From positions 1 through 58,133 of the forward strand of contig JAQUKH010000013.1 of NCBI GenBank assembly GCA_028719205.1: DNA of 58,133 nt. The letters run 5' to 3'. Source of the stretch: a bacterium. Lineage in GTDB: Bacteria; JACRDZ01; JAQUKH01. The notes below the pieces were generated by a model that was not told the origin of the DNA, did no database searches, and saw only the letters and a program-made list of their open reading frames with translations. A program made the translations under genes and the position numbers. Of this stretch, positions 5,178-58,133 are shown in pieces. Position 1 is the stretch's first letter. The number at the start of each line of letters is the position of its first letter.

Positions 5178-6062
5178 CTATTTTTTTTCCAACGGTTCCA
5201 TATGGACCACTACATCTGTTATCTCTTTAATATTAATTTTGATCGTGGTTTCAATTGAATTGCTTATTTCATGGGCTTTATCTATGTGTGTTTCCGGGTT
5301 TATCTGGACGTGCAGGTCTAAATGTATATCGTCGGGCCTGCCTCGCGACCGTATCTTGTGGCATGCTTCTACTCCGTTGATACTGAGGACAATATTTTTT
5401 ATTTTATTATCATCTATCACCGCGGTATCACACAGGACTTGCGAACCCTCTTTTATTATCCCGTATGCCGCGTGGGCGATAAAAAACGATATGATGATCG
5501 CGGCGATCGGGTCAAATATCGGATAACCCAATTTAATCGCGGCTAAGGCAGTTAGAACTGACAGTGACGTGAAAATATCTGATTTTGTGTGAAGCGCGTC
5601 GGAAACAAGAAAGTCGCTTTTTAGCTCTTTTCCTTTTTTAAGTTCATATCTCATGACCAGAACATTGACGGTCATAGTCGCGATCATTATAATAAAACTT
5701 TTGTAATCTACCTCAGTAATAGCCGCGGCCGGATTGAGAAAACGATTTATGCTTCCTCTGATCAAATTGAAACAAACAACGCTTAATAACCCCGCGATGC
5801 TTAAAGACGCGAAGGTTTCATATTTTTTGTGCCCGTACGGGTGATCCTTGTCTATTGGCTTGGATGCGATAGCGATCCCGACCAGGCCTATTATGTTTGA
5901 AGCCCCGTCGGTTAATGAATGGAATCCATCCGCGGTCATACTCATGCAGTTGGTGTAAATGCCATAGAATATTTTTGCGAAGGCCACCAGCCAGTTTAAT
6001 AGCAGGGTGATGAATAAGATAAATTTAATATCTTTGTAACGGGTTTGTCCTGTGGATTCCAT
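5178..6062 (-). CDS. Cation diffusion facilitator (FieF-like) transporter
   Basis: ADGFHSLTD, HPYGHKKYE, SDALHTKSD and a C-terminal dimerization domain ending VVVHMEP. Confidence 0.93.
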   Translation of the reverse strand: MESTGQTRYKDIKFILFITLLLNWLVAFAKIFYGIYTNCMSMTADGFHSLTDGASNIIGLVGIAIASKPIDKDHPYGHKKYETFASLSIAGLLSVVCFNLIRGSINRFLNPAAAITEVDYKSFIIMIATMTVNVLVMRYELKKGKELKSDFLVSDALHTKSDIFTSLSVLTALAAIKLGYPIFDPIAAIIISFFIAHAAYGIIKEGSQVLCDTAVIDDNKIKNIVLSINGVEACHKIRSRGRPDDIHLDLHVQINPETHIDKAHEISNSIETTIKINIKEITDVVVHMEPLEKK

Positions 6063-6119
6063 AGTTCGGAATTATAGCATAATTTTATTGATTATTTGAT
6101 ATTTATTTAAAGCAGTATC

Positions 6120-7172
6120 TCATTTTAATTTAAAATTCTTTTTGGTGAAAAGTTCCACACAGGCGTCTACTGCGACCGGTTCATAAAAAATACCTCTGTT
6201 TTCTGAAAGCTCTTTTAACGCGCCATCGATGCCGATAGCCGGCCGGTACGGACGGTGAGATATCATGGCCTCAAAAGTATCAGATACACGCAATATTTTT
6301 GCTTCCAAAAGGATCACATCACCGGACAGCCCCTGAGGATAGCCTGAACCATTGATATTCTCATGATGTTGAAATACTATCTTGGCGATAGGCCAAGAAA
6401 ATTCTATGTCTTTTAAAATAACGTAACCTGTTTCAGGGTGAAGGCGAACCAGATTCATTTCATGTTTGTTCAGCCAGGCCGGTTTAACCAGTATGTCGAT
6501 AGGGACGCTGATCTTTCCGGTATCATGTACTAATGAAGCTAAATACAAACCCTTGATCTGTTCCTCCGACAGCCCGACAAGTTCAGCGATAGCTGAAGAA
6601 AGCTGAGCTACGCGGCGCTGGTGGCCGGCAGTATAAGGGTCTCTTTTTTCAAGAGCGAAAGCGAAGGCGTCAATTGTTTCTATTAATATTCTTTGCAATT
6701 TCTTTTTTTCAACCTGCAATTCGGATGTACGCTCATTTACTTTAACCTCAAGGTCATTCTTCGAGTTCTGAAGTTTTTTCTGTATAAGGCTGCGTTCAAG
6801 CGTATAGTCTATAGCGCGCAGGAACATATTACATTCAAGCTGATTTTTAGTAATATAGTCCTGTGCGCCTTTACTGACCGTACGGATCGCCAGGGTCTCA
6901 TCTTCGGAACCGGTTAAAATAATCATAGGGGTATCGTGAGCCTGCTCTTTGACTTTTGTGAAAGTGTCAAATCCACGGGAGTCCGGCAAATTAAGATCCA
7001 GTAAGATCAGATCAAAGATATTATTTTTTTCATACTCTAATGCTTTTACTAAATTATCAGACCATGTGATCGCAAATTCTGTCCTTCCGGCAATTTTAAA
7101 TATCTTTTGATATAAGTCTACTGAGGATGGATTGTCTTCAATGATGAGTATCTTTGTATTTTCTCTTTTCAT
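6120..7172 (-). CDS. Response regulator with HD-GYP phosphodiesterase domain
   Basis: REC (ILIIED, LLDLNLPD) plus RDPYTAGHQRRV, HDTGK, HHENINGSGYPQGL and HRPYR. Confidence 0.93.
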   Translation of the reverse strand: MKRENTKILIIEDNPSSVDLYQKIFKIAGRTEFAITWSDNLVKALEYEKNNIFDLILLDLNLPDSRGFDTFTKVKEQAHDTPMIILTGSEDETLAIRTVSKGAQDYITKNQLECNMFLRAIDYTLERSLIQKKLQNSKNDLEVKVNERTSELQVEKKKLQRILIETIDAFAFALEKRDPYTAGHQRRVAQLSSAIAELVGLSEEQIKGLYLASLVHDTGKISVPIDILVKPAWLNKHEMNLVRLHPETGYVILKDIEFSWPIAKIVFQHHENINGSGYPQGLSGDVILLEAKILRVSDTFEAMISHRPYRPAIGIDGALKELSENRGIFYEPVAVDACVELFTKKNFKLK

Positions 7173-7176
7173 ATTG

Positions 7177-7560
7177 TTAACTCCTTTCGCCGAGTTTTTT
7201 AAACACTTCCTCTATTGTTGTTTTCAAAAATACCAGATCAACCGGTTTTTCCAGATATTGGTCAATATATTCGACGGGTAAATCTTTTTTATTTAATTCG
7301 TTTATTATCGCGGTTAAAATAATAACCGGTATCGCTTTAGTATTTTCATCTCTCTTCAATATTTTTAAAACCTCTATGCCGTTCATTCCGGGCATGTTAA
7401 TATCTAAAAGGATCAAATCAGGATTCAGGCTCTTTACGTTCATGATACCATCTTCTCCGTTAAACGCGATGTTTACTTCAAAAGCACCCATATGTTCCAA
7501 ACCGGCCTTTACTATATCGCAAATCCTTTTTTCGTCATCAATGATTAATATCTTTTTCAT
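7177..7560 (-). CDS. Single-domain response regulator
   Basis: KILIIDDE, DLILLDINMPGMNG, ILTA, EKP. Confidence 0.93.
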   Translation of the reverse strand: MKKILIIDDEKRICDIVKAGLEHMGAFEVNIAFNGEDGIMNVKSLNPDLILLDINMPGMNGIEVLKILKRDENTKAIPVIILTAIINELNKKDLPVEYIDQYLEKPVDLVFLKTTIEEVFKKLGERS

Positions 7561-7562
7561 CT

Positions 7563-9554
7563 TTACGCTTTATCTCCCATCGGCAGAAGTATGGTAAAGG
7601 TAGTTCCCTTATTCAATTCGCTTTCTAATTTTAATTCTCCTTTATGCACCTCAATTATACCCAGACAAATTATAAGCCCTAACCCTGTTCCTTCTTCTTT
7701 GGTTGTAAAAAACGGATTAAATATCTTATTCTTGACCTCTTCTGACATACCGCATCCGGTATCCCTGAAATCAATGCGTAAATAGTCTTCCTCCTGGGAA
7801 GTTTTAATAGTGATGGTTCCGCCATCAGGCATTGAATCTTTGGCGTTACTGATTAAATTCATAAAAACTTCCTGCATCTGTTGTTCGTTCACTGATACAG
7901 AAAGATCCTTCTGATAATCTCTTATTATCTCCACATTTGCTAACTTTAGCTGTTGTTCCACTATATTCACTATAGTGTCAATGCTCATATTAATATCAAC
8001 TTCCTTAACCTCGCCTTTGCTGGGCCTGGAAAATTTAAGGAGCCTCCGGATAATATTCTTTGCCCTCTGAGATTCCTCTATGATAATTTGCAGGTTACGT
8101 TTTACCTCATCGCTTAAAGGCCCTGACATTAAAGAAACCTGCGCGTTACCGGAAATTATCATCAAAGGATTATTGAACTCGTGAGCGATCTCAGAAACAA
8201 GCTTTCCCAGAGAAGCCATTTTTTCAGACCGGATCAGGATATTTTTGGCGCGCTTTAGTTCTTCAATATGCTTCTCTAATTTTTCCCTGATCAGATTATT
8301 ATCCGCTAACATGCTTAATAAGATCTCGCGGGATTTTACCTCCTGTTTCAAGGACTGGTTTAAATGCTCTTCCGCTTTTTTGCGTTCGATCACTTCTTTA
8401 TTCAAAATATCTAAGGAAGTCGTGGTTTCCCTTATATTTTTCGTCATTTTATCAAATTCCCGGGAAAGCTGTCCGATCTCATCTCTGGAATCATTGCCTA
8501 TCTGGTAGTCCAGATTACCTTTACCGATTATTTCTGCACCTTTTTGCAGTTCCTGTATAGGATCGGAAATGGACTTGGCTATCGTGAAAACGGCTAATGC
8601 TGTAGAAAAAATAGTTATTAAAATGACAACGATCAATAATTTTTTCAGCCTATCGACAGGTAAAAATGCTTCTTCTGAGTCGATCTTTGATACCAACCCC
8701 CATCCCAGATCTTCAATCGGCAGCCACACGGACAGGACTTCTTTTCCCCGGTAGTCAATGGTTAAACCCGAGCCGGTTTCTCCTAATGCTGATTTTTGGG
8801 CCGGCAAACCATATTCCCCGCCGATATTTATTGTTTGTGCTGAGATAGCTTCCTGTTGGTATTTTAACGGGCTTAAGAATATAACCTTATTATCCGGCGT
8901 TTTTTTAACAATTATTGTCTCCAAACTTTTTCCAAGTTCAGAGTTATCCTGTATAAATTTAAACCACTTAACCATATCTAATTCCAGATAGATCAAACCT
9001 ATAACTTTATTCGCGTTGTCATAGGCCGGAGCCGCAAGAAATAAATTATATGAGTACCGTTTGTTGATAGTTTTATGAAGCTCCCCGACATATATACCAT
9101 TTTTTGATTGCTGGAAAACATCATCTTTATTGGGTATAGCATTACCTATTTCCGGCTCAAATGCCGTATCAAAAACATAAATAATCTTTCCATCTATGTT
9201 TGTCAGCTTAATATCAATATAGCTTTGCGTGAGCTGGGATACAGCAAAACGTTGATCGACCTCTTTCCTGGCATTAATGTAGGAAGGATTTGACCGGTCT
9301 TTGTAAAATTGATCCAGTACGCGAAAATGTGTTTTGTATATATCAAGCTGCTCCATTAGAAGGAGGTCCTGCTTTCTTTCATTAAAAAATGTCTCAATTC
9401 CGCTCTTTTCTTCATTGTTAATAATACTTAATTTGGAAAGTATCTCTTTTTCTATGATATTTTTAGAGTTATTAAAAACCAGATTGCTTACAAACATCAC
9501 AGGTATGATTGCGAATGCTAAAAATATAATGACTAGTTTGATATAAATGCGCAT
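7563..9554 (-). CDS. Sensor histidine kinase (TM-Cache-like-TM-HAMP-HisKA-HATPase)
   Basis: Two TM segments, HAMP (DEIGQLSREFDKM), H-box EIAHEFNNPL, and N, G1 (DTGCGM), F (PFFTTK) and G2 (GTGLGL) boxes. Confidence 0.93.
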   Translation of the reverse strand: MRIYIKLVIIFLAFAIIPVMFVSNLVFNNSKNIIEKEILSKLSIINNEEKSGIETFFNERKQDLLLMEQLDIYKTHFRVLDQFYKDRSNPSYINARKEVDQRFAVSQLTQSYIDIKLTNIDGKIIYVFDTAFEPEIGNAIPNKDDVFQQSKNGIYVGELHKTINKRYSYNLFLAAPAYDNANKVIGLIYLELDMVKWFKFIQDNSELGKSLETIIVKKTPDNKVIFLSPLKYQQEAISAQTINIGGEYGLPAQKSALGETGSGLTIDYRGKEVLSVWLPIEDLGWGLVSKIDSEEAFLPVDRLKKLLIVVILITIFSTALAVFTIAKSISDPIQELQKGAEIIGKGNLDYQIGNDSRDEIGQLSREFDKMTKNIRETTTSLDILNKEVIERKKAEEHLNQSLKQEVKSREILLSMLADNNLIREKLEKHIEELKRAKNILIRSEKMASLGKLVSEIAHEFNNPLMIISGNAQVSLMSGPLSDEVKRNLQIIIEESQRAKNIIRRLLKFSRPSKGEVKEVDINMSIDTIVNIVEQQLKLANVEIIRDYQKDLSVSVNEQQMQEVFMNLISNAKDSMPDGGTITIKTSQEEDYLRIDFRDTGCGMSEEVKNKIFNPFFTTKEEGTGLGLIICLGIIEVHKGELKLESELNKGTTFTILLPMGDKA

Positions 9555-9556
9555 GT

Positions 9557-10183
9557 TTATTTGTTTCTTTCCGTTAAAACTATCCCTGCACCGAACAAGA
9601 CAAAAAGTATTGCGGTATGTATCGCCATGGCGCTGGATTTACCGGGAATATCAAAATAAAGTAAAGGCAGATTAATGCTATAACCCAGGATCGCTATTAA
9701 TCCGGTTATGGCTGCCGTTCCACAAAAGATTGCCGGTAATTTGTTCAGGCTCCTGATATTCATAGTCGTTAAGATTCCCGACATGGCTATCAGAATAAAA
9801 TTTATCATGGTAACAATAGACGGCCTGCCCGGGGTTACGCTTCCGACTGCAATCGTCGAATCCTTGACGAACATTTCCTCGACGCCCACATTTATTCCAA
9901 TGGCTGTAGAGGCGAGTAAACTTACCATAAGAAGTAAAATGGACATGCTTAGTATAGGTATAATAATAACTGCCAAATCGCGGTTTTTCTTCCGAAACCG
10001 CGCAATAAAATAGAGTTCTATTCCGCACAGGAAGAATGAAAGCGCCGTGGGAAATTTCATAGAGACCCAGACAGGCAAAATGCTTTTTAACACCCCGATA
10101 TTTAAGAACCATCCGACCATGACAACCACACTGCTTAGTGTAATTAAAATTCCAAGAGCTTCAGGAATATTATCTTTTTTCAT
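9557..10183 (-). CDS. Stand-alone multi-TM protein resembling the N-terminal membrane sensor region of PAS kinases
   Basis: About 6 hydrophobic segments, SMKFPTALSF and MAIHTA motifs, no output domain. Confidence 0.6.
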   Translation of the reverse strand: MKKDNIPEALGILITLSSVVVMVGWFLNIGVLKSILPVWVSMKFPTALSFFLCGIELYFIARFRKKNRDLAVIIIPILSMSILLLMVSLLASTAIGINVGVEEMFVKDSTIAVGSVTPGRPSIVTMINFILIAMSGILTTMNIRSLNKLPAIFCGTAAITGLIAILGYSINLPLLYFDIPGKSSAMAIHTAILFVLFGAGIVLTERNK

Positions 10184-11117
10184 TCAGTTCCTTTTTAAAC
10201 ATTTCAATTTCTTTTTTAAGCTCCAGTATCCGCTCCTCCCTGCATACGCTGGCTTTATAAAAAATTTCCAACTCCTGCAAACGCTTACGCATTTCTTCTT
10301 CCATCTTCTTGCGTTCGGTAATGTCGCGATGAAAAGCTACTACCAATTTTTCAAAACCAATTTCCACTAAATTTGTCACCACTTCAAGGGGAAAAATATG
10401 GCCGTCCTTATGATAATGTTCTGCTTCGAATTGTAATGTTTCACCTTTCAAAATACGCTGTATTCTTTCAGGAAATGTTTTTATTGTTTCCGGAGTATCC
10501 AGCTCATTTAATTCCATATTTAATATTTCTTCTTTATTGTAACCGTGCATCCTGGCAAAAGAATCATTTACCGCTATGATCTTGCCGCTTAAATTTAAGA
10601 AGAATATACCGTCGCTCGCGTTATTAAATAATTTCCGGTAGCGCTCCTCGGCGCGCTTTTGTTCAGTGATGTCGCGCGCGACATGCACACTGCCGATAAT
10701 CTGTCCGGTCTCGTCGCGTAAAGGATTTATTCTGGCTTCAAAAAAACCGTCAAGGTGTTTCTCCTTGAACTCGGCATATTCTTCTTTTTCGCTTTTCAGC
10801 ATTCTGGTGTGCGGGCAGAAATCAGGGGGCGCGGATAAACCATGCATAACCTCGTAGCAATAACGCCCCGTCATCTGGCTTGGGACACTTCCCAGCCGCG
10901 CTGCCATGGCCCAGTTTATCCGGATGATGCGGTATTCTCTATCTATCAGCGCGATAAGGTCAGGAACCAGATCAAAAGTCCGCTGCCATTCTTTTTTGTC
11001 ACGAGTGGCTCTTTCCTCAGCCTGCTTCCGCCTGACATCCGATATCTCGAGTTCCGCGATCCGCTTTTGCAGGAGCTTTATTTCTTCAATGAGTTCTTCT
11101 TTGGTTTTCTCTGTCAT
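10170..11117 (-). CDS. PAS-PAS protein with no catalytic output domain
   Basis: Likely start MTEKTKEELIEE (11117). Two PAS/PAC units end in RDITE. C-terminal coiled tail REERILELKKEI. Confidence 0.85.
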   Translation of the reverse strand: MTEKTKEELIEEIKLLQKRIAELEISDVRRKQAEERATRDKKEWQRTFDLVPDLIALIDREYRIIRINWAMAARLGSVPSQMTGRYCYEVMHGLSAPPDFCPHTRMLKSEKEEYAEFKEKHLDGFFEARINPLRDETGQIIGSVHVARDITEQKRAEERYRKLFNNASDGIFFLNLSGKIIAVNDSFARMHGYNKEEILNMELNELDTPETIKTFPERIQRILKGETLQFEAEHYHKDGHIFPLEVVTNLVEIGFEKLVVAFHRDITERKKMEEEMRKRLQELEIFYKASVCREERILELKKEIEMFKKELNEKR

Positions 11118-11251
11118 TATAACGATAATTATCGACAAAACCATTGATAAACTTAGTCTTTTAGTGATTAAGGATTTTCAAAAAATTATATAAAAATATT
11201 TAAAAATAAGTATATAATCAATATCGCGAATTACTAAAAGGAGGATCTCTA

Positions 11252-11482
11252 ATGGCAAAGAAAACAATTGTTGTTCTATGTATATTTTTAGCCGGTATTG
11301 CTGTTATCTACGGCTGTAAAGGCAGTGAAACAAGGAAAGTCGCGGAGGAAATAAGGGACGAAGTCACGGGGAACCGGGCAGTGCAGCAGGGTGAAAAGGC
11401 AAAAAAAAATATTGAAGAGATTGAAAAACAAAACGCTGAAAGGAATGAAAATTTTAAGAAACAAACAGGGGACAGCGAATAA
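11252..11482 (+). CDS. Small putative lipoprotein
   Basis: GGAGG RBS, signal peptide with lipobox-like IYG-C, charged helical body. Confidence 0.7.
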   Translation: MAKKTIVVLCIFLAGIAVIYGCKGSETRKVAEEIRDEVTGNRAVQQGEKAKKNIEEIEKQNAERNENFKKQTGDSE

Positions 11483-11488
11483 TGCGGA

Positions 11489-12517
11489 TTAAATATTTTC
11501 AGTAATAAAATTCCTTAAATTTTCCTGATATTTTTCTGTGCTTTTGATAATTTTGGTCATCATATCGACCACCAGCCATGGTTGTTTTCCAATAGCTGTT
11601 TCCCCGGAAAGCATGAGATATTCCGCGCCATCCAGAATGGCGTTAGCTACATCGCTGACCTCGGCGCGGGTTGGCGTATTATTTTCGGTCATGGTTTCAA
11701 GCATCTGGGTTGCAACTACTACGGGTTTTCCTTCAATGTTACATTTTTTAATAATCTCTTTCTGGAATATAGGAACTTTATAAATAGGAAGGCTTATTCC
11801 AAGGTCTCCCCGCGCGACAACAATGCCGTCGGACTCTTTGATGATATCATCTATATTCCGCAGCGCCTCCTTATTTTCTATTTTCGCGAAAACCTTGCAG
11901 TCAGAGCGGTTGTTTTTGATTATATCTTTAATAAGAAGTATGTCCCTTGCGTTCCTTACGAAAGACTGGGCAATATAATCAACTTTGTGTTTTATTCCGA
12001 AATTCAAGTCCATTTTATCCTTATCTGTCAAGGCATCAAAAGGAAGGTTTACGTCAAGGATATTGATCCCTTTTCGTTCCTTAAGTATTCCGGCAACTAA
12101 AATCTTTGTTTTAAGACGGTTTTTTTCTCTGGCAGTGACTTTTAAAAGTATTTTCCCGTCATCTATGCTGATCAGGTTTCCGGTTTTAATTAAATTAAGC
12201 GGCCCTTTATAGTCAAATGACGCTTCTTTTTCATTTCCGGTAATTTCTTCCTGTATAAGATAAAAAACGGAATTTTTGTTTAACGGGATATCCTTTCCCA
12301 GTTTTCCGATGCGGATACGGTATCCTTCCAGGTCCTGCATGATCTTTATGTTTTTATTAAGGCCGCGGACAAGCCTGATCCTCTGCAGTTGCTTTTGCGG
12401 TGACCCGTGCGAGAAATTAAGACGGATAACATCCAAGCCGGAGGAAATCATTTTTTTAAGAATTAATATATCATCAGTAGCAGGGCCCAATGTGGCAATT
12501 ATTTTAGTTTTCTTCAT
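11489..12517 (-). CDS. pyk: Pyruvate kinase lacking the C-terminal regulatory domain
   Basis: KTKIIATLGPA, RLNFSHG, AKIEN, VARGDLG, ATQMLETM, PTRAEVSDVANA, MLSGETA. The protein ends at 342 aa. Confidence 0.92.
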   Translation of the reverse strand: MKKTKIIATLGPATDDILILKKMISSGLDVIRLNFSHGSPQKQLQRIRLVRGLNKNIKIMQDLEGYRIRIGKLGKDIPLNKNSVFYLIQEEITGNEKEASFDYKGPLNLIKTGNLISIDDGKILLKVTAREKNRLKTKILVAGILKERKGINILDVNLPFDALTDKDKMDLNFGIKHKVDYIAQSFVRNARDILLIKDIIKNNRSDCKVFAKIENKEALRNIDDIIKESDGIVVARGDLGISLPIYKVPIFQKEIIKKCNIEGKPVVVATQMLETMTENNTPTRAEVSDVANAILDGAEYLMLSGETAIGKQPWLVVDMMTKIIKSTEKYQENLRNFITENI

Positions 12518-55828: not shown

Positions 55829-56365
55829 TTATTTTTTGAATATGTCTATTATGCTTTTTGGATACAGGGCTCCGAGGAAAGAGCCGGCAAGACTGCCGGT
55901 CTTTTCTTTTTTATCTATGCTCTTAATAATATCTTCAGCGTTTTTACTTTCCAGAAGGTCGTTTAAAAACTCGGTATCCGTGCATAAACGGTTCAGGTAT
56001 GTAAGGTATTGCAAATGGCTTTCAAGTTTTTTGAAACATAATATGAAAAAAACAAAAGTCGGGTCTTCATCTATTGAGTCAAAGTCAATTCCATCTTTAG
56101 AAATGCCAATACCAATAGCGGGTTTATTTACGATTTCTTCAACATCATATCTGGGATGAAGAAAGGCTACCCCGTCTTCAAGCCCGGTACTGCATAACTT
56201 TTCTCTTTCAATAAGTGAATTAGTAAACCTGTTTTTATCAGTTAAAACATTATCTGCATCAAGCAAATCTACTAATTCTTTAATTACATTTTCTTTATTT
56301 TTTGAGCGTAGATTCGTATTTATGCATTTTATGGAAATTAATGGAAGTATTTTTATATCCTTCAT
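55829..56365 (-). CDS. PTS EIIA-type (fructose/PtsN-like) protein
   Basis: KENVIKELV, EREKLCSTGLEDGVAFLHPR (phospho-His), GIDFDSID, HLQYL. Confidence 0.9.
   Translation of the reverse strand: MKDIKILPLISIKCINTNLRSKNKENVIKELVDLLDADNVLTDKNRFTNSLIEREKLCSTGLEDGVAFLHPRYDVEEIVNKPAIGIGISKDGIDFDSIDEDPTFVFFILCFKKLESHLQYLTYLNRLCTDTEFLNDLLESKNAEDIIKSIDKKEKTGSLAGSFLGALYPKSIIDIFKK
55883..55913 (+). terminator. Possible intrinsic terminator for the + strand operon, lying antisense within the PTS gene tail
   Basis: GCCGGCA-AGAC-TGCCGGT followed by CTTTTCTTTTTT. Confidence 0.4.
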
Positions 56366-56447
56366 TTATTTCACCTATAAAATTTTCTACAACTTATATG
56401 CTACTTTAAAACAAAACAGATGTCAAGTGGGAAAAATAATCTGTATC

Positions 56448-56477
56448 TTGACAAGAGCAATAAGTAAGTCTTATAAT
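56448..56477 (+). promoter_or_regulatory. sigma70 promoter for the hydrogenase-like operon
   Basis: TTGACA-N18-TATAAT. Confidence 0.6.
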
Positions 56478-56526
56478 GAATATATTCGGTTTATACTTAA
56501 AACCAGGATATTTACAACACAATTAT

Positions 56527-57066
56527 ATGTTTAAACTTTTTTTAAAAATATTAAAGACTCCAAAAAATATAATCCCATTACAAGATAAGGGCTTTGATCA
56601 AGCCGGTATTGTTGCTGTCGGCGAAAAAATAGAGAATAAAGTAAAACGCTTATTTAGCGGATCTCTTGCTATCAGGCAAATAGATGCCGGCTCTGATAAT
56701 GCCTGCGAGCAGGAACTAACCGCTCTTTCTAATTCATTTTATGATATTGAACGCTTCGGGATCCATTTTGTTGCTTCCCCAAGGCACGCCGATATGCTTT
56801 TGGTAACCGGGCCGGTGACGCGCAATATGGCCGAGGCAGTCAGGCGGGCATATGAAGCAACGCCTGATCCGAAAATTGTTATTGCCGTTGGCGATGACGC
56901 TATTGATGGCGGAATTTTTAAGGACTCTTACGCGGTTTTAGGCGGAGTTGATTCTATTTTGCCGGTGCATTATCAAATTCCGGGCGATCCGCCGTCACCA
57001 AAAACAATACTTTTTTCTCTTCTGGGGATTCTTGAAGATTTAGATAAGGCAGTTCTCAAATCATAA
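56527..57066 (+). CDS. NuoB/HyfI/EhrS-like small subunit of a group-4 hydrogenase-related complex, with atypical cluster ligands
   Basis: SLAIRQIDAGSDNACEQE, YDIERFGIHFVASPRHADMLLVTGPVT, YEATPDPKIVIAVGDDA, IPGDPP. Likely start ATG 56527. Confidence 0.9.
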   Translation: MFKLFLKILKTPKNIIPLQDKGFDQAGIVAVGEKIENKVKRLFSGSLAIRQIDAGSDNACEQELTALSNSFYDIERFGIHFVASPRHADMLLVTGPVTRNMAEAVRRAYEATPDPKIVIAVGDDAIDGGIFKDSYAVLGGVDSILPVHYQIPGDPPSPKTILFSLLGILEDLDKAVLKS

Positions 57067-57070
57067 TAAT

Positions 57071-58133
57071 ATGACAGAAATTATCACAGCACCCATAAGT
57101 TTTTATATTTTGGTTTTGCTTTTTTCCATCGGCGCGGCCGGTTCTTTATTATTAAGAAAAGATGATATATCGGCAAATATCTGGAGCAGTTTTTTTGCCA
57201 TTGCCGGTTCTTTGTGGGGCTTGCTTTTTTCACTCATGATAATCATTTCTGGAAACGCCTTATCTTTTATGGCGGGAATATCTCCTTTTCCTCTCCTTTC
57301 CCTCTCTTTGCATATTGACATGCTGTCGGCATTTTTTATTTTCACTATTTCGCTGATTGCTCTTTTTTGCTCTATCTATGGAATCGGATATGTAAAACAT
57401 TTTTATAAAAAATACAACATCGGCGTTTTGGGATTTTTTTACCATCTGTTTATCCTTGGGATATTATTTGTCGTTACTGCGTCAAATGGGATCTTTTTTC
57501 TGGTTGCGTGGGAAATTATGGCCGTTGCCTCGTATTTTCTCATTGTTTATGACCGCGATGAAAAAAATAATATAAAAGCCGGTTTTTTATATCTCGTTAT
57601 GACATATGTCGGTACGGCCTTTATCATTGCTTTTTTCCTACTGCTCTACAAATTTACCGGTTCTTTTGATTTTGAAGTAATCAGGGCCGGCGCTATGCTT
57701 ATTCCTTTGTATATTAAAAACATAATTTTTGTACTTGCCATGATTGGTTTTGGCACAAAGGCCGGCATTATTCCGTTCCATATCTGGCTTCCGGCCGCTC
57801 ATCCGGCCGCTCCTTCCCATACCTCCGCTTTCATGTCCGGCGTTATGCTTAAAAGCGGAATTTATATGATGATCAGATTGTTCCTTGATATCCTCCAGCC
57901 GGTTCCGGCCTGGTGGGGGCTTGCAGTTCTGGTTGCTGGAGCAATATCTTCTTTACTCGGAGTTTTGTACGCACTGACGGAGAATGATATAAAAAGGCTC
58001 CTGGCATATTCCAGTATTGAAAATATCGGAATTATCTTGCTTGGCCTTGGAAGCGCGATGACTTTTTCCTCGCTTGGCATGCAATCCTTGGCGCTTCTTA
58101 GTTTAGTTGCGGCGCTTTTTCATACTTTAAATC
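57071..58133 (+). CDS. hyfB: HyfB-like proton-translocating membrane subunit (partial, runs off the window)
   Basis: Hand translation: FFLVAWEIMAVASYFL, GFGTKAGIIPFHIWLPAAHPAAPS, MSGVMLKSGIY, DIKRLLAYSSIENIG. Confidence 0.88.
   Translation, partial: MTEIITAPISFYILVLLFSIGAAGSLLLRKDDISANIWSSFFAIAGSLWGLLFSLMIIISGNALSFMAGISPFPLLSLSLHIDMLSAFFIFTISLIALFCSIYGIGYVKHFYKKYNIGVLGFFYHLFILGILFVVTASNGIFFLVAWEIMAVASYFLIVYDRDEKNNIKAGFLYLVMTYVGTAFIIAFFLLLYKFTGSFDFEVIRAGAMLIPLYIKNIIFVLAMIGFGTKAGIIPFHIWLPAAHPAAPSHTSAFMSGVMLKSGIYMMIRLFLDILQPVPAWWGLAVLVAGAISSLLGVLYALTENDIKRLLAYSSIENIGIILLGLGSAMTFSSLGMQSLALLSLVAALFHTLN

What the first reader, a model, noticed from the sequence alone, without database searches (positions are those of the whole stretch)
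56527..58133. Hydrogenase/complex-I small subunit with three of four Fe-S cysteines replaced by aspartate
Known: group-4 hydrogenase and Ehr small subunits bind a [4Fe-4S] cluster through GSCNGCE, GDCA and PGCPP. Seen: this gene encodes GSDNACE (GAT 56695), GDDA (GAC 56896) and PGDPP (GAT 56986), so only one Cys remains while the rest of the protein is well conserved. Each Cys-to-Asp change needs two base substitutions, so three parallel changes to the same carboxylate ligand suggest selection rather than decay. Inference: the site may bind an Asp-ligated cluster or a different metal ion, or serve a non-redox role. The gene heads an operon with hyfB, so this could be an unrecognised variant of ion-pumping hydrogenase-related complexes.
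Basis: partly seen in the sequence, partly recalled or inferred. Interest (0 to 1): 0.75.

Follow-up and report, generated by a model that had tools for sequence, protein, structure and literature searches.

The report
Iron-sulfur-free Ehr complex small subunit
This gene encodes the small subunit of a hydrogenase- and complex-I-like membrane machine whose iron-sulfur ligands have been replaced by conserved aspartates, so the six-protein complex seems to have no redox centre and probably moves ions by some other drive.

Summary
The 179-aa NuoB/HycG-like protein (56527-57066) reads Asp57, Cys60, Asp124 and Asp154 at the four positions that align with the [4Fe-4S] cysteines of solved HycG and MbhJ.

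It is the first gene of a six-gene Ehr (energy-converting hydrogenase-related) cassette, S-B-C-E-F-L. The cassette is split by a contig break and continues at the start of contig C37. The large subunit has Ser/Ser/Ser/Gly where HycE has its Ni-Fe cysteines, and there is no ferredoxin-type subunit.

The pattern is not private to this assembly. All 120 closest database clusters and 31 of 80 related genomic loci carry it. On a tree built without the four columns, these loci form one well-supported clade, mostly Patescibacteria with scattered other phyla. The 49 more distant Ehr loci keep all four Cys.

Asp124 and Asp154 are held through synonymous codon turnover, but positions 57 (D/T/S) and 60 (C/E/A) vary. 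A 3-Asp/1-Cys cluster is therefore unlikely.

Most likely this is a cluster-free Ehr variant that still translocates ions, because the channel residues are intact. The role of the aspartates is untested.

The clade is catalogued in print by its large subunit only. I found no paper on the aspartate signature. This scan has flagged the same thing at least 15 times on other DNA.

The parts
56448..56477 (+). Sigma-70-like promoter (TTGACA, 18 nt spacer, TATAAT), about 50 nt upstream of the ehrS start
   Evidence: 12 of 12 consensus matches. It is a consensus match only, not shown to be functional. Its -10 box overlaps the alternative ATG at 56476.
56527..57066 (+). ehrS: NuoB/HycG/MbhJ-like small subunit, 179 aa, lacking three of the four [4Fe-4S] cysteines
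   Evidence: Pfam PF01058, 91.2 bits against a cut-off of 27. PDB alignments to HycG and MbhJ. AF2 model pLDDT 91.5. Foldseek match to 6cfw_J, TM 0.90, rmsd 2.0 A.
56695..56697 (+). GAT = Asp57, at Cys ligand position 1
   Evidence: In the 32-member clade: Asp 17 (GAC 9, GAT 8), Thr 12, Ser 3.
56704..56706 (+). TGC = Cys60, the one retained ligand position
   Evidence: In the clade: Cys 28, Glu 3, Ala 1 of 32. Cys in 119 of the 120 closest clusters.
56896..56898 (+). GAC = Asp124, at Cys ligand position 3
   Evidence: In the clade: Asp 31 of 32 (GAT 19, GAC 12), Gly 1. All 49 distant Ehr loci have Cys.
56986..56988 (+). GAT = Asp154, at Cys ligand position 4 (PGDPP)
   Evidence: In the clade: Asp 30 (GAT 22, GAC 8), Asn 2 of 32. 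Among the 120 closest clusters: Asp 82, Asn 38.
57071..58133 (+). ehrA / hyfB-like antiporter-type subunit, first 354 codons, cut by the contig end. It continues on contig C37 after about 60 unassembled codons.
   Evidence: PF00361 E 1.4e-40. In every related locus with both halves, the match to the N-terminal half ends exactly 180 nt before the match to the C37 half begins. The full-length homologue in G014 is 683 aa. E148, K230, H237 and K261 are invariant in 28 of 28 clade members.

Best explanation
The gene is ehrS, the NuoB-like small subunit of an Ehr (energy-converting hydrogenase-related) complex. It belongs to a distinct, laterally spreading subclade in which the single remaining redox cofactor of Ehr, the [4Fe-4S] cluster of the small subunit, has been lost.

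Shown:
- The six-gene cassette S-B-C-E-F-L encodes the small subunit, a NuoL/HyfB-like subunit, a NuoH/HyfC-like subunit, a HyfE-like subunit, a NuoM/N/HyfF-like subunit and a fused NuoC-NuoD-like large subunit. All six are intact.
- The large subunit has no Ni-Fe cysteines.
- No ferredoxin-type subunit is encoded.
- Three of the four cluster ligand positions are non-Cys across the clade.
- All subunits, and the charged channel residues of the membrane subunits, are strongly conserved.

Inferred:
- The complex carries no internal electron-transfer chain and still translocates ions. It may work as a secondary cation/proton exchanger in the manner of Mrp, or be driven by an unknown non-redox input. 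The S-L cap would be kept as a structural or conformational coupling module.
- The former cluster cavity is lined by two or three carboxylates (Asp124, Asp154, often Asp57) plus Cys60. These most likely stand in for the volume and the net -2/-3 charge of a [4Fe-4S](Cys)4 centre, or hold a cation. Which of these is correct is untested.
For: Identity and positions:
- Pfam, NCBIfam and PDB alignments.
- The fold is kept: pLDDT 91.5; TM 0.90 to MbhJ.

Operon:
-.

Large subunit:
- The alignment to HycE (7z0s_E, E 7e-70) puts Ser, Ser, Ser and Gly at HycE's two CxxC pairs.
- 67 of 68 Ehr large subunits examined have no Cys at those four columns, and one has a single Cys.

Clade:
- On a tree of 81 small subunits with the four trait columns removed, the 32 Cys-poor rows fall on one side of a branch (SH-aLRT 97). 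Their sister group is two Azambacteria loci that keep four Cys. One change suffices.

Selection:
- Synonymous turnover occurs at Asp124 (GAT 19, GAC 12) and Asp154 (GAT 22, GAC 8).
- 38 positions are invariant in the clade.
- S has the highest identity of the six proteins in 23 of 26 complete clade loci. Mean identity is 70.9% against 52-65% for the others.
- The only columns that separate the clade from Cys-keeping Ehr are four in S (A59, L64, D124, D154) and two in L (F306, N354).

Ion machinery:
- In the antiporter-like subunits, HyfB-like E148/K230/H237/K261 and HyfF-like E133/K220/H227 are invariant in 28 of 28 clade loci, in the distant Ehr loci and in the genome's own Nuo paralogues.
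- NuoH-like E138, E189, R192, D196, E203 and E214 are invariant in 27 of 27 clade loci.

No conserved redox partner:
- Among 90 flanking ORFs from 30 clade loci, the only recurrent families are F-type ATP synthase subunits.
- These lie within 9 kb in 7 of 31 clade loci and in 0 of 49 Cys-keeping loci.

Charge:
- 34 of the 35 rows in the main clade of the wider tree carry 2 or 3 carboxylates at the four positions. This is counted from the patterns listed.
Against: - No experiment exists. Absence of a cofactor is inferred from ligand loss alone.
- Cys60 is well kept (28 of 32; 119 of 120) and, together with Asp124 and Asp154, could still ligate a metal.
- In this genome the cassette is followed on the same strand by rubrerythrin, HdrC/B/A-like and MvhD genes, so an external electron donor cannot be excluded here.
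- The driving force of a redox-free complex of this kind is unknown.
- The ATP synthase linkage is absent in this genome, and the 7 loci showing it are related to one another.
- About 60 codons of hyfB are unassembled, so intactness of that stretch is assumed from homologues.
- No RNA data are available.
Confidence: 0.6

Rival explanations
1. The Asp/Cys pocket still binds a redox-active metal centre: an Asp-ligated [4Fe-4S] or [3Fe-4S]-type cluster, or mononuclear Fe. The complex would remain redox-driven.
For: Cys60, Asp124 and Asp154 are strongly conserved. The fold of the pocket is predicted with pLDDT around 95. Single Asp ligands to [4Fe-4S] clusters are known elsewhere (P. furiosus ferredoxin, the DPOR NB protein; recalled, not checked here).
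Against: Position 57 is Thr or Ser in 15 of 32 clade members. Position 60 is Glu or Ala in 4 of 32. Position 154 is Asn in 38 of the 120 closest clusters. No covarying change in S or L accompanies Asp versus Thr/Ser at position 57. There is no entry route for electrons, since no NuoI/HycF-type subunit is encoded. There is also no acceptor site, since the Ni-Fe ligands are gone. I know of no precedent for a cubane with three carboxylate ligands (recalled).
Confidence: 0.1
2. The complex is redox-driven through an external partner that docks on the S-L cap. Here that would be the adjacent rubrerythrin/HdrCBA/MvhD genes. Elsewhere it could be a formate dehydrogenase, as proposed for other Ehr complexes.
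For: On C37 rubrerythrin begins 33 nt after the stop codon of ehrL, followed by HdrC/B/A-like and MvhD genes on the same strand. Matheus Carnevali et al. 2019 proposed an FDH-Ehr complex (PMC6349859, passages read). Geobacter Ehr subunits rise on formate (PMC7894505, passages read).
Against: The neighbours are not conserved. G014, with a 75%-identical S, has unrelated flanks. No Hdr, Fdh or NuoEF family recurs among 90 flanking ORFs: Pyr_redox_2 appears in 2, and no molybdopterin or NuoE/F family is among the 25 families listed. Without a cluster in S there is no wire from a docked partner towards the membrane arm.
Confidence: 0.1
3. The carboxylate pocket is a binding site for a non-redox cation (Mg2+, Ca2+, Zn2+, Na+). 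The cation would be structural, or would gate the membrane arm. This is a variant of the main reading that assigns the aspartates a specific job.
For: Two or three carboxylates sit in a buried pocket in 34 of 35 main-clade rows (patterns). Acidic replacements recur in Cys-poor sequences outside the main clade (DAAD, DADN, ECED, DVDD, DIDD, TDES, NEGD). On a 188-row tree, well-supported branches force at least 4 changes of the Cys-poor label. This suggests acidic residues were acquired repeatedly.
Against: The 188-row tree rests on 122 columns. It has many unresolved forks and flagged long branches, so the independence of these losses is uncertain. Some variants have only 0-1 carboxylates (TCGN, SAES, DCAA). 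No coordinates were available to measure the geometry.
Confidence: 0.2
4. The gene is a decaying pseudogene, an assembly or sequencing artefact, or a mis-binned contig of no functional meaning.
For: The operon is split at a contig end. Two same-genus genomes lack it.
Against: All six genes are open. The residues recur in 120 of the 120 closest clusters. An independent contig matches with 0 differences. S is the most conserved subunit. The contig's other 56 kb carries ordinary genes at the genome's GC of 0.376.
Confidence: 0.02

Closest known systems
CPR-specific Ehr clade (Jaffe et al. 2020, BMC Biol, PMC7304191; passages read)
   Same: The large subunit lacks the metal-binding cysteines. The clade is monophyletic, patchily distributed and thought to be laterally transferred. 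The window's closest relatives are mostly Patescibacteria records: 21 of 31 clade loci by record title.
   Different: The passages read describe only the large subunit and say nothing about the small subunit's Fe-S ligands. The supplements (Fig. S6b) could not be opened. The present host is not a CPR bacterium. It has 2.59 Mb, a full nuo operon with a four-Cys NuoB, TrpE and many signalling genes.
Ehr complexes in general (Geobacter sulfurreducens EhrA-D, L, S, GSU0739-45; also ammonia oxidisers, Nitrospira, Margulisbacteria)
   Same: The subunit set is the same, and the large-subunit signature (SGD[ST][ST]..H and SYSGNDL) is shared by 66 of 68 sequences over the recovered parts. The function is stated as unknown in every paper read.
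   Different: All 49 more distant Ehr loci examined keep the four cluster cysteines in S, and most have the order B-C-(E)-F-L-S. The window's clade has lost three or four of them and has S first.
E. coli formate hydrogenlyase HycG/HycE (7z0s) and P. furiosus MBH MbhJ/MbhL (6cfw)
   Same: These are the best sequence and fold matches: S at E 3.2e-32 and 1.3e-31, TM 0.90 to MbhJ; L at E 7e-70 to HycE.
   Different: Those enzymes have four Cys on S, two CxxC pairs on L and a 2x[4Fe-4S] subunit. Here S has one Cys, L has none, and no such subunit is encoded.
Mrp-type cation/proton antiporters (recalled, not tested here)
   Same: They are a redox-free relative built from the same antiporter-like (PF00361) modules. 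This is the nearest functional analogy for what the complex may work like.
   Different: Mrp has no NuoB-, NuoD- or NuoH-like subunits. The window's complex keeps the whole peripheral cap and the NuoH-like channel.

Membership tests
NuoB/HycG/MbhJ small-subunit family (Pfam PF01058 Oxidored_q6) | Sequence match above the curated cut-off | tested here: met
   91.2 bits against a cut-off of 27, E 5.7e-26. NF005012 scores 117.4 bits against a cut-off of 116.
NuoB/HycG/MbhJ small-subunit family (Pfam PF01058 Oxidored_q6) | Same fold as solved members | tested here: met
   AF2 model pLDDT 91.5, pTM 0.87. Foldseek matches 6cfw_J at TM 0.90, rmsd 2.0 A, and 7q5y_F at TM 0.89, rmsd 1.6 A.
NuoB/HycG/MbhJ small-subunit family (Pfam PF01058 Oxidored_q6) | Four cysteines that ligate the [4Fe-4S] cluster | tested here: not met
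   Only Cys60 remains. Asp57, Asp124 and Asp154 align with the other three Cys of HycG and MbhJ. The genome's own NuoB on C9 keeps all four.
Ehr (energy-converting hydrogenase-related) complex | [quoted passage not shown] | tested here: met
   HycE is the best PDB match (E 7e-70). Ser224, Ser227, Ser517 and Gly520 align with its CxxC pairs.
Ehr (energy-converting hydrogenase-related) complex | Operon with a small subunit, antiporter-like subunits, and NuoH-like and HyfE-like membrane subunits | tested here: met
   The order S-B-C-E-F-L was reconstructed from C13 and C37. The same order occurs in 25 of the 26 clade loci in which all six genes were recovered; in L021 the L gene precedes F.
Ehr (energy-converting hydrogenase-related) complex | Groups with named Ehr sequences in a tree | tested here: inconclusive
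   The window groups with loci that share the Ehr large-subunit signature, including Nitrososphaera, Nitrosotalea and Rhizobium loci. No sequence explicitly labelled Ehr in a paper (for example Geobacter GSU0739-45) was placed in the tree.
Group 4 [NiFe] hydrogenase (Hyf/Hyc/Ech/Mbh) | Two CxxC motifs on the large subunit that bind Ni-Fe | tested here: not met
   none of the four positions is Cys.
Group 4 [NiFe] hydrogenase (Hyf/Hyc/Ech/Mbh) | 2x[4Fe-4S] ferredoxin-like subunit (HycF/HyfH/NuoI type) in the operon | tested here: not met
   There is no such ORF between ehrS and ehrL. The nearest 4Fe-4S protein is an HdrC-like gene beyond rubrerythrin.
Respiratory complex I (Nuo) | N2 cluster on NuoB, and NuoI and NuoEFG modules | tested here: not met
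   The cassette has none of these. A separate nuo locus with a four-Cys NuoB lies on contig C9.

The most novel reading that the evidence does not exclude
A complex-I-type energy converter works with no redox centre at all. The acidic pocket carries two or three carboxylates, matching the -2/-3 charge of a [4Fe-4S](Cys)4 centre. It would act as a fixed-charge or cation-gated stand-in for the reduced cluster that normally triggers the membrane arm. The six-protein machine would serve as an ion-gradient converter working with the ATP synthase. It would be mobile enough to move between ultra-small CPR bacteria and free-living phyla such as this host.
Probability: 0.25. Interest if true: 0.8.

Novelty: new variant of a known kind. 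Interest (0 to 1): 0.5.

Why it matters
Complex I and the membrane-bound hydrogenases couple electron transfer near the small-subunit cluster to ion pumping, and how that coupling works is still debated. A strongly conserved natural relative keeps the whole coupling architecture: the cap, the NuoH-like channel and two antiporter-like subunits with intact Glu/Lys/His residues. Yet it has lost every predicted redox ligand. It is therefore a natural 'redox-dead' version of the machine.

If it transports ions, it shows that the architecture can be driven otherwise. If the aspartates mimic the charge of the cluster, it offers a handle on the electrostatic trigger model.

It would also bear on the energy budget of Patescibacteria, where this cassette is one of the few membrane energy complexes. 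This window shows in addition that the cassette occurs in a normal-sized, respiratory-competent bacterium, which may be easier to study than CPR hosts.

Tried and rejected
- Literature search ('EhrS', 'EhrL') returned only electronic-health-record papers and was useless.
- Searches found no paper on Fe-S ligand loss in Ehr small subunits. Marreiros et al. 2013 is not held and Coppi 2005 was not looked up, so I cannot say whether they mention it.
- The first wide tree was discarded. MAFFT misaligned the PGCPP column and my filter removed every four-Cys row. It was redone with a profile alignment.
- Expression: no RNA holder is listed for the stretch.
- The reads tool showed only contigs. No contig bridges the C13 end, so the C13-C37 join rests on homologues.
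- GC content gives no transfer signal: 0.40-0.41 for the cassette against 0.376 for the genome.
- I searched for residues in S or L that covary with Asp versus Thr/Ser at position 57. None carries a charge; the only hits were I/V171 and P/V484 in L.
- An attempt to name the host phylum through TrpE relatives gave one 85% match to an unclassified 'bacterium' record. The remaining matches were at or below 60% (most at or below 57%) across many phyla, so the phylum is left unnamed.
- Complex prediction was not run. S-L binding is a textbook pair, and a pass would not change my odds.
- No model coordinates are returned, so distances between the carboxylates could not be measured.
Full report
**Observation.** The ORF at 56527-57066 (+) encodes a 179-aa protein with GSDNACE, GDDA and PGDPP. 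The codons are GAT 56695 (Asp57), TGC 56704 (Cys60), GAC 56896 (Asp124) and GAT 56986 (Asp154).
- It matches Pfam PF01058 (Oxidored_q6) at 91.2 bits against a cut-off of 27, and NuoB-family NCBIfam models.
- phmmer against all PDB sequences gives E. coli formate hydrogenlyase HycG (7z0s_G, E 3.2e-32) and P. furiosus MbhJ (6cfw_J, E 1.3e-31) as best hits. The printed alignments put Asp57, Cys60, Asp124 and Asp154 opposite the four cysteines of both proteins. That these four Cys hold the proximal [4Fe-4S] cluster is established knowledge of those structures.
- A perfect sigma-70-type consensus (12 of 12) lies at 56448-56477. Its -10 box overlaps the alternative ATG at 56476. Homologues begin like the 56527 form.
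- An independent contig of run X1 covers 56300-58060 without a single difference. It may come from the source sample.

**The operon.** The window is a whole contig, C13 of a 2.59-Mb, 68-contig, 92.7%-complete genome. The hyfB-like gene that starts 4 nt after ehrS (57071) runs off its end.
- Contig C37 opens with the C-terminal 269 codons of a HyfB-like protein. No Pfam family matches that part, so its identity rests on the tblastn matches.
- The rest of C37 then carries:
  - a NuoH/HyfC-like gene (PF00146);
  - a HyfE-like gene, which has no Pfam hit;
  - a HyfF-like gene (PF00361);
  - a 523-aa fused NuoC-NuoD-like large subunit (PF00329 plus PF00346).
- In every related locus that holds both halves, the match to the window's HyfB part ends exactly 180 nt before the match to the C37 part begins. 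The full-length homologue in G014 is 683 aa, which equals 354 + 60 + 269.
- So the cassette is S-B-C-E-F-L, with about 60 codons unassembled. The break coincides with a stretch where contigs of many other organisms pile up (depth 101 at 57974-58035).

**No other redox site.** The large subunit's best PDB match is HycE (7z0s_E, E 7e-70).
- The alignment places Ser224 and Ser227 opposite HycE's first Cys pair, and Ser517 and Gly520 opposite the second.
- Of 68 large subunits (the window plus 67 loci), 67 have no Cys at these four columns and one has a single Cys. Two are cut before the second pair.
- No ferredoxin-type ORF lies within the cassette.
- This is therefore an Ehr complex as the papers define it: related to group 4 hydrogenases but lacking the Ni-Fe ligands (passages read in PMC6349859, PMC7304191, PMC10284858, PMC10432482).

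**Distribution.** The pattern is widespread among close relatives and stops at a clear boundary.
- The 120 best of 8000 scored database clusters (72-100% identity) all carry Asp57 and Asp124. Of these, 119 carry Cys60, and position 154 is Asp in 82 and Asn in 38.
- Among 80 genomic loci (the best 80 of 505 confirmed), 31 are Cys-poor: DCDD 14, TCDD 11, DCDN 2, SEDD 2, TADD 1, SEGD 1. The other 49, at 53-67% best-segment identity, are CCCC.
- All of these loci, Cys-poor or not, have Ehr-type large subunits where that gene was recovered.
- A tree of 81 small subunits was built with the four trait columns removed (IQ-TREE quick, SH-aLRT only). It puts the 32 Cys-poor rows on one side of a branch (support 97) with two four-Cys Azambacteria loci as sister. 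The window pairs with L018 (support 95) inside a 17-row clade (support 97).
- By record title, the 31 Cys-poor loci are 21 Patescibacteria and 7 others (Fibrobacteria, Ignavibacteria, Endomicrobiales, a Rikenella-labelled MAG, Lentisphaerae, Gamma- and Deltaproteobacteria). Three are unlabelled.
- With 50%-identity representatives added, the tree has 188 rows and 122 columns. It is poorly resolved and has flagged long branches. On it, 15 further Cys-poor sequences fall outside the main 35-row clade: DAAD, DADN, ECED, SAES, NEGD/NEGN/CEGD, DVDD/DIDD/DCAA, TDES, DCDN and others.
- On that tree the Cys-poor label needs 11 changes, of which well-supported branches force at least 4. Repeated loss with acidic replacement is thus likely but not secure.

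**Selection.** Several lines show purifying selection rather than decay.
- In the 32-member clade, Asp124 is encoded by GAT 19 times and GAC 12 times, with one Gly. Asp154 is GAT 22, GAC 8, with two Asn. Cys60 is TGC 21, TGT 7, with Glu 3 and Ala 1. Position 57 is Asp 17, Thr 12 and Ser 3.
- 38 positions are invariant in the clade.
- S is the best-conserved of the six proteins in 23 of 26 complete clade loci. Mean identity to the window is 70.9% against 52-65% for the others.
- Only A59, L64, D124 and D154 in S, and F306 and N354 in L, separate the clade from the four-Cys Ehr loci. The rest of the machine did not change when the cluster went.
- The model of S is confident (pLDDT 91.5). It superposes on MbhJ at TM 0.90 and rmsd 2.0 A.

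**Ion machinery.** The channel residues are intact.
- HyfB-like E148, K230, H237 and K261, and HyfF-like E133, K220 and H227, are invariant in 28 of 28 clade loci. They are also invariant in the distant Ehr loci and in three antiporter-like Nuo paralogues of the same genome.
- The NuoH-like subunit keeps E138, E189, R192, D196, E203 and E214 in 27 of 27 loci, shared with the genome's own NuoH.
- That these are the TM5 Glu, TM7 Lys and E-channel residues of complex I is my recollection of the structures, not a tested mapping.

**Context and transfer.** The cassette behaves as a self-contained, transferable unit.
- Two same-genus genomes (98% and 92% complete) and two same-phylum genomes have only the canonical NuoB and NuoD. 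One genome of another family (G014, 2.5 Mb) has the cassette, with S 75% and L 69% identical and a DCDD pattern, but with unrelated flanks.
- The host is not a CPR bacterium. It has a nuo locus with a four-Cys NuoB, TrpE, MurJ, histidine kinases and a GGDEF/EAL protein.
- Among 90 flanking ORFs from 30 clade loci, the only recurrent families are ATP synthase subunits. F-type gamma/beta/epsilon genes lie within 9 kb in 7 of 31 clade loci, directly upstream in L032 and L041. They lie within 9 kb in 0 of 49 four-Cys loci. These 7 are related genomes, so the count overstates independence.
- In this genome the neighbours are different. Upstream is a PTS EIIA-like gene on the other strand. Downstream are rubrerythrin, HdrC/B/A-like, MvhD and acetyl-CoA synthetase genes (the acetyl-CoA synthetase name is my reading of its translation and was not scanned against any family library).

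**Mechanism.**
- Shown: no canonical ligand set for any redox cofactor remains, while all parts are conserved.
- Inferred: the complex has no internal electron path and still moves ions. It may be a secondary exchanger or be driven by an unknown input. The S-L cap would be kept for assembly or conformational coupling.
- The pocket holds two or three carboxylates in 34 of 35 main-clade rows (patterns). This equals the -2/-3 net charge of a [4Fe-4S](Cys)4 centre (textbook chemistry). Charge and volume substitution or cation binding are the two live roles.
- A three-Asp cubane is unlikely, because positions 57, 60 and 154 vary and no compensating change accompanies that variation.

**What is known.**
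- Jaffe et al. 2020 report a monophyletic CPR Ehr clade whose large subunits lack the metal cysteines and 'likely cannot interact with H2'. The passages read do not mention the Ehr small subunit's Fe-S ligands; their small-subunit passages concern group 3b hydrogenases.
- Matheus Carnevali et al. 2019 has no occurrence of 'small subunit' in its main text.
- Four further searches found nothing on the Asp signature.
- Marreiros 2013 is not held, Coppi 2005 was not looked up, and supplements were closed. Priority therefore cannot be excluded.
- This scan has already reported the same feature on other DNA at least 15 times. I used those notes as leads for the ATP synthase adjacency, the charge stand-in idea and repeated evolution, and re-tested them here.

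**Verdict.** This is a real, selected, cluster-free variant of a known but functionally unexplained family. What this window adds is a non-CPR host and a different gene neighbourhood.

Noticed in passing
window 56448-56477 (+): A perfect 12/12 sigma-70 consensus promoter (TTGACA, 18 nt spacer, TATAAT) lies in the 161-nt divergent intergenic region between a PTS EIIA-like gene (55829-56365, minus strand) and ehrS.
   Followed up: partly
G000 contig C9, about 11.6-26.3 kb (loci L002-L010, L014): The canonical nuo locus of the same genome carries six separate ORFs that match the antiporter-like family PF00361. Contig C12 carries four more. That is more NuoL/M/N-type subunits than a standard complex I has.
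   Followed up: no
L017 (G000:C37) 5444-11874: Directly downstream of ehrL, on the same strand, lie a rubrerythrin with an N-terminal rubredoxin-like domain, HdrC-, HdrB- and HdrA-like genes, MvhD (FlpD) and an acetyl-CoA synthetase. This neighbourhood is not shared by the G014 copy of the cassette.
   Followed up: partly
L032 1881-4630, L041 7-2100, L045 4332-6596 (also L020, L025, L027, L038): F-type ATP synthase gamma/beta/epsilon genes lie next to, or within a few kb of, the Cys-poor Ehr cassette in 7 of 31 clade loci and in none of 49 four-Cys Ehr loci.
   Followed up: partly
L049 and L059 (Azambacteria records): These two loci are the sister group of the Cys-poor clade. They keep all four Cys, have S first like the clade, and have about 1 kb of extra sequence between the F and L genes. 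They may represent an intermediate stage.
   Followed up: no
window 57974-58035: Contigs of many other organisms in runs X1-X3 pile up on this conserved hyfB stretch (summed depth 101 in X1). The window's contig and the independent X1 contig both end just after it. This probably explains the assembly break.
   Followed up: partly
P0176, P0242, P0250, P0269: Some Cys-poor small-subunit homologues outside the main clade are 250-300 aa long, with an N-terminal extension. Their patterns are ECED, DCAA, DIDD and DCDN. The extension was not examined.
   Followed up: no
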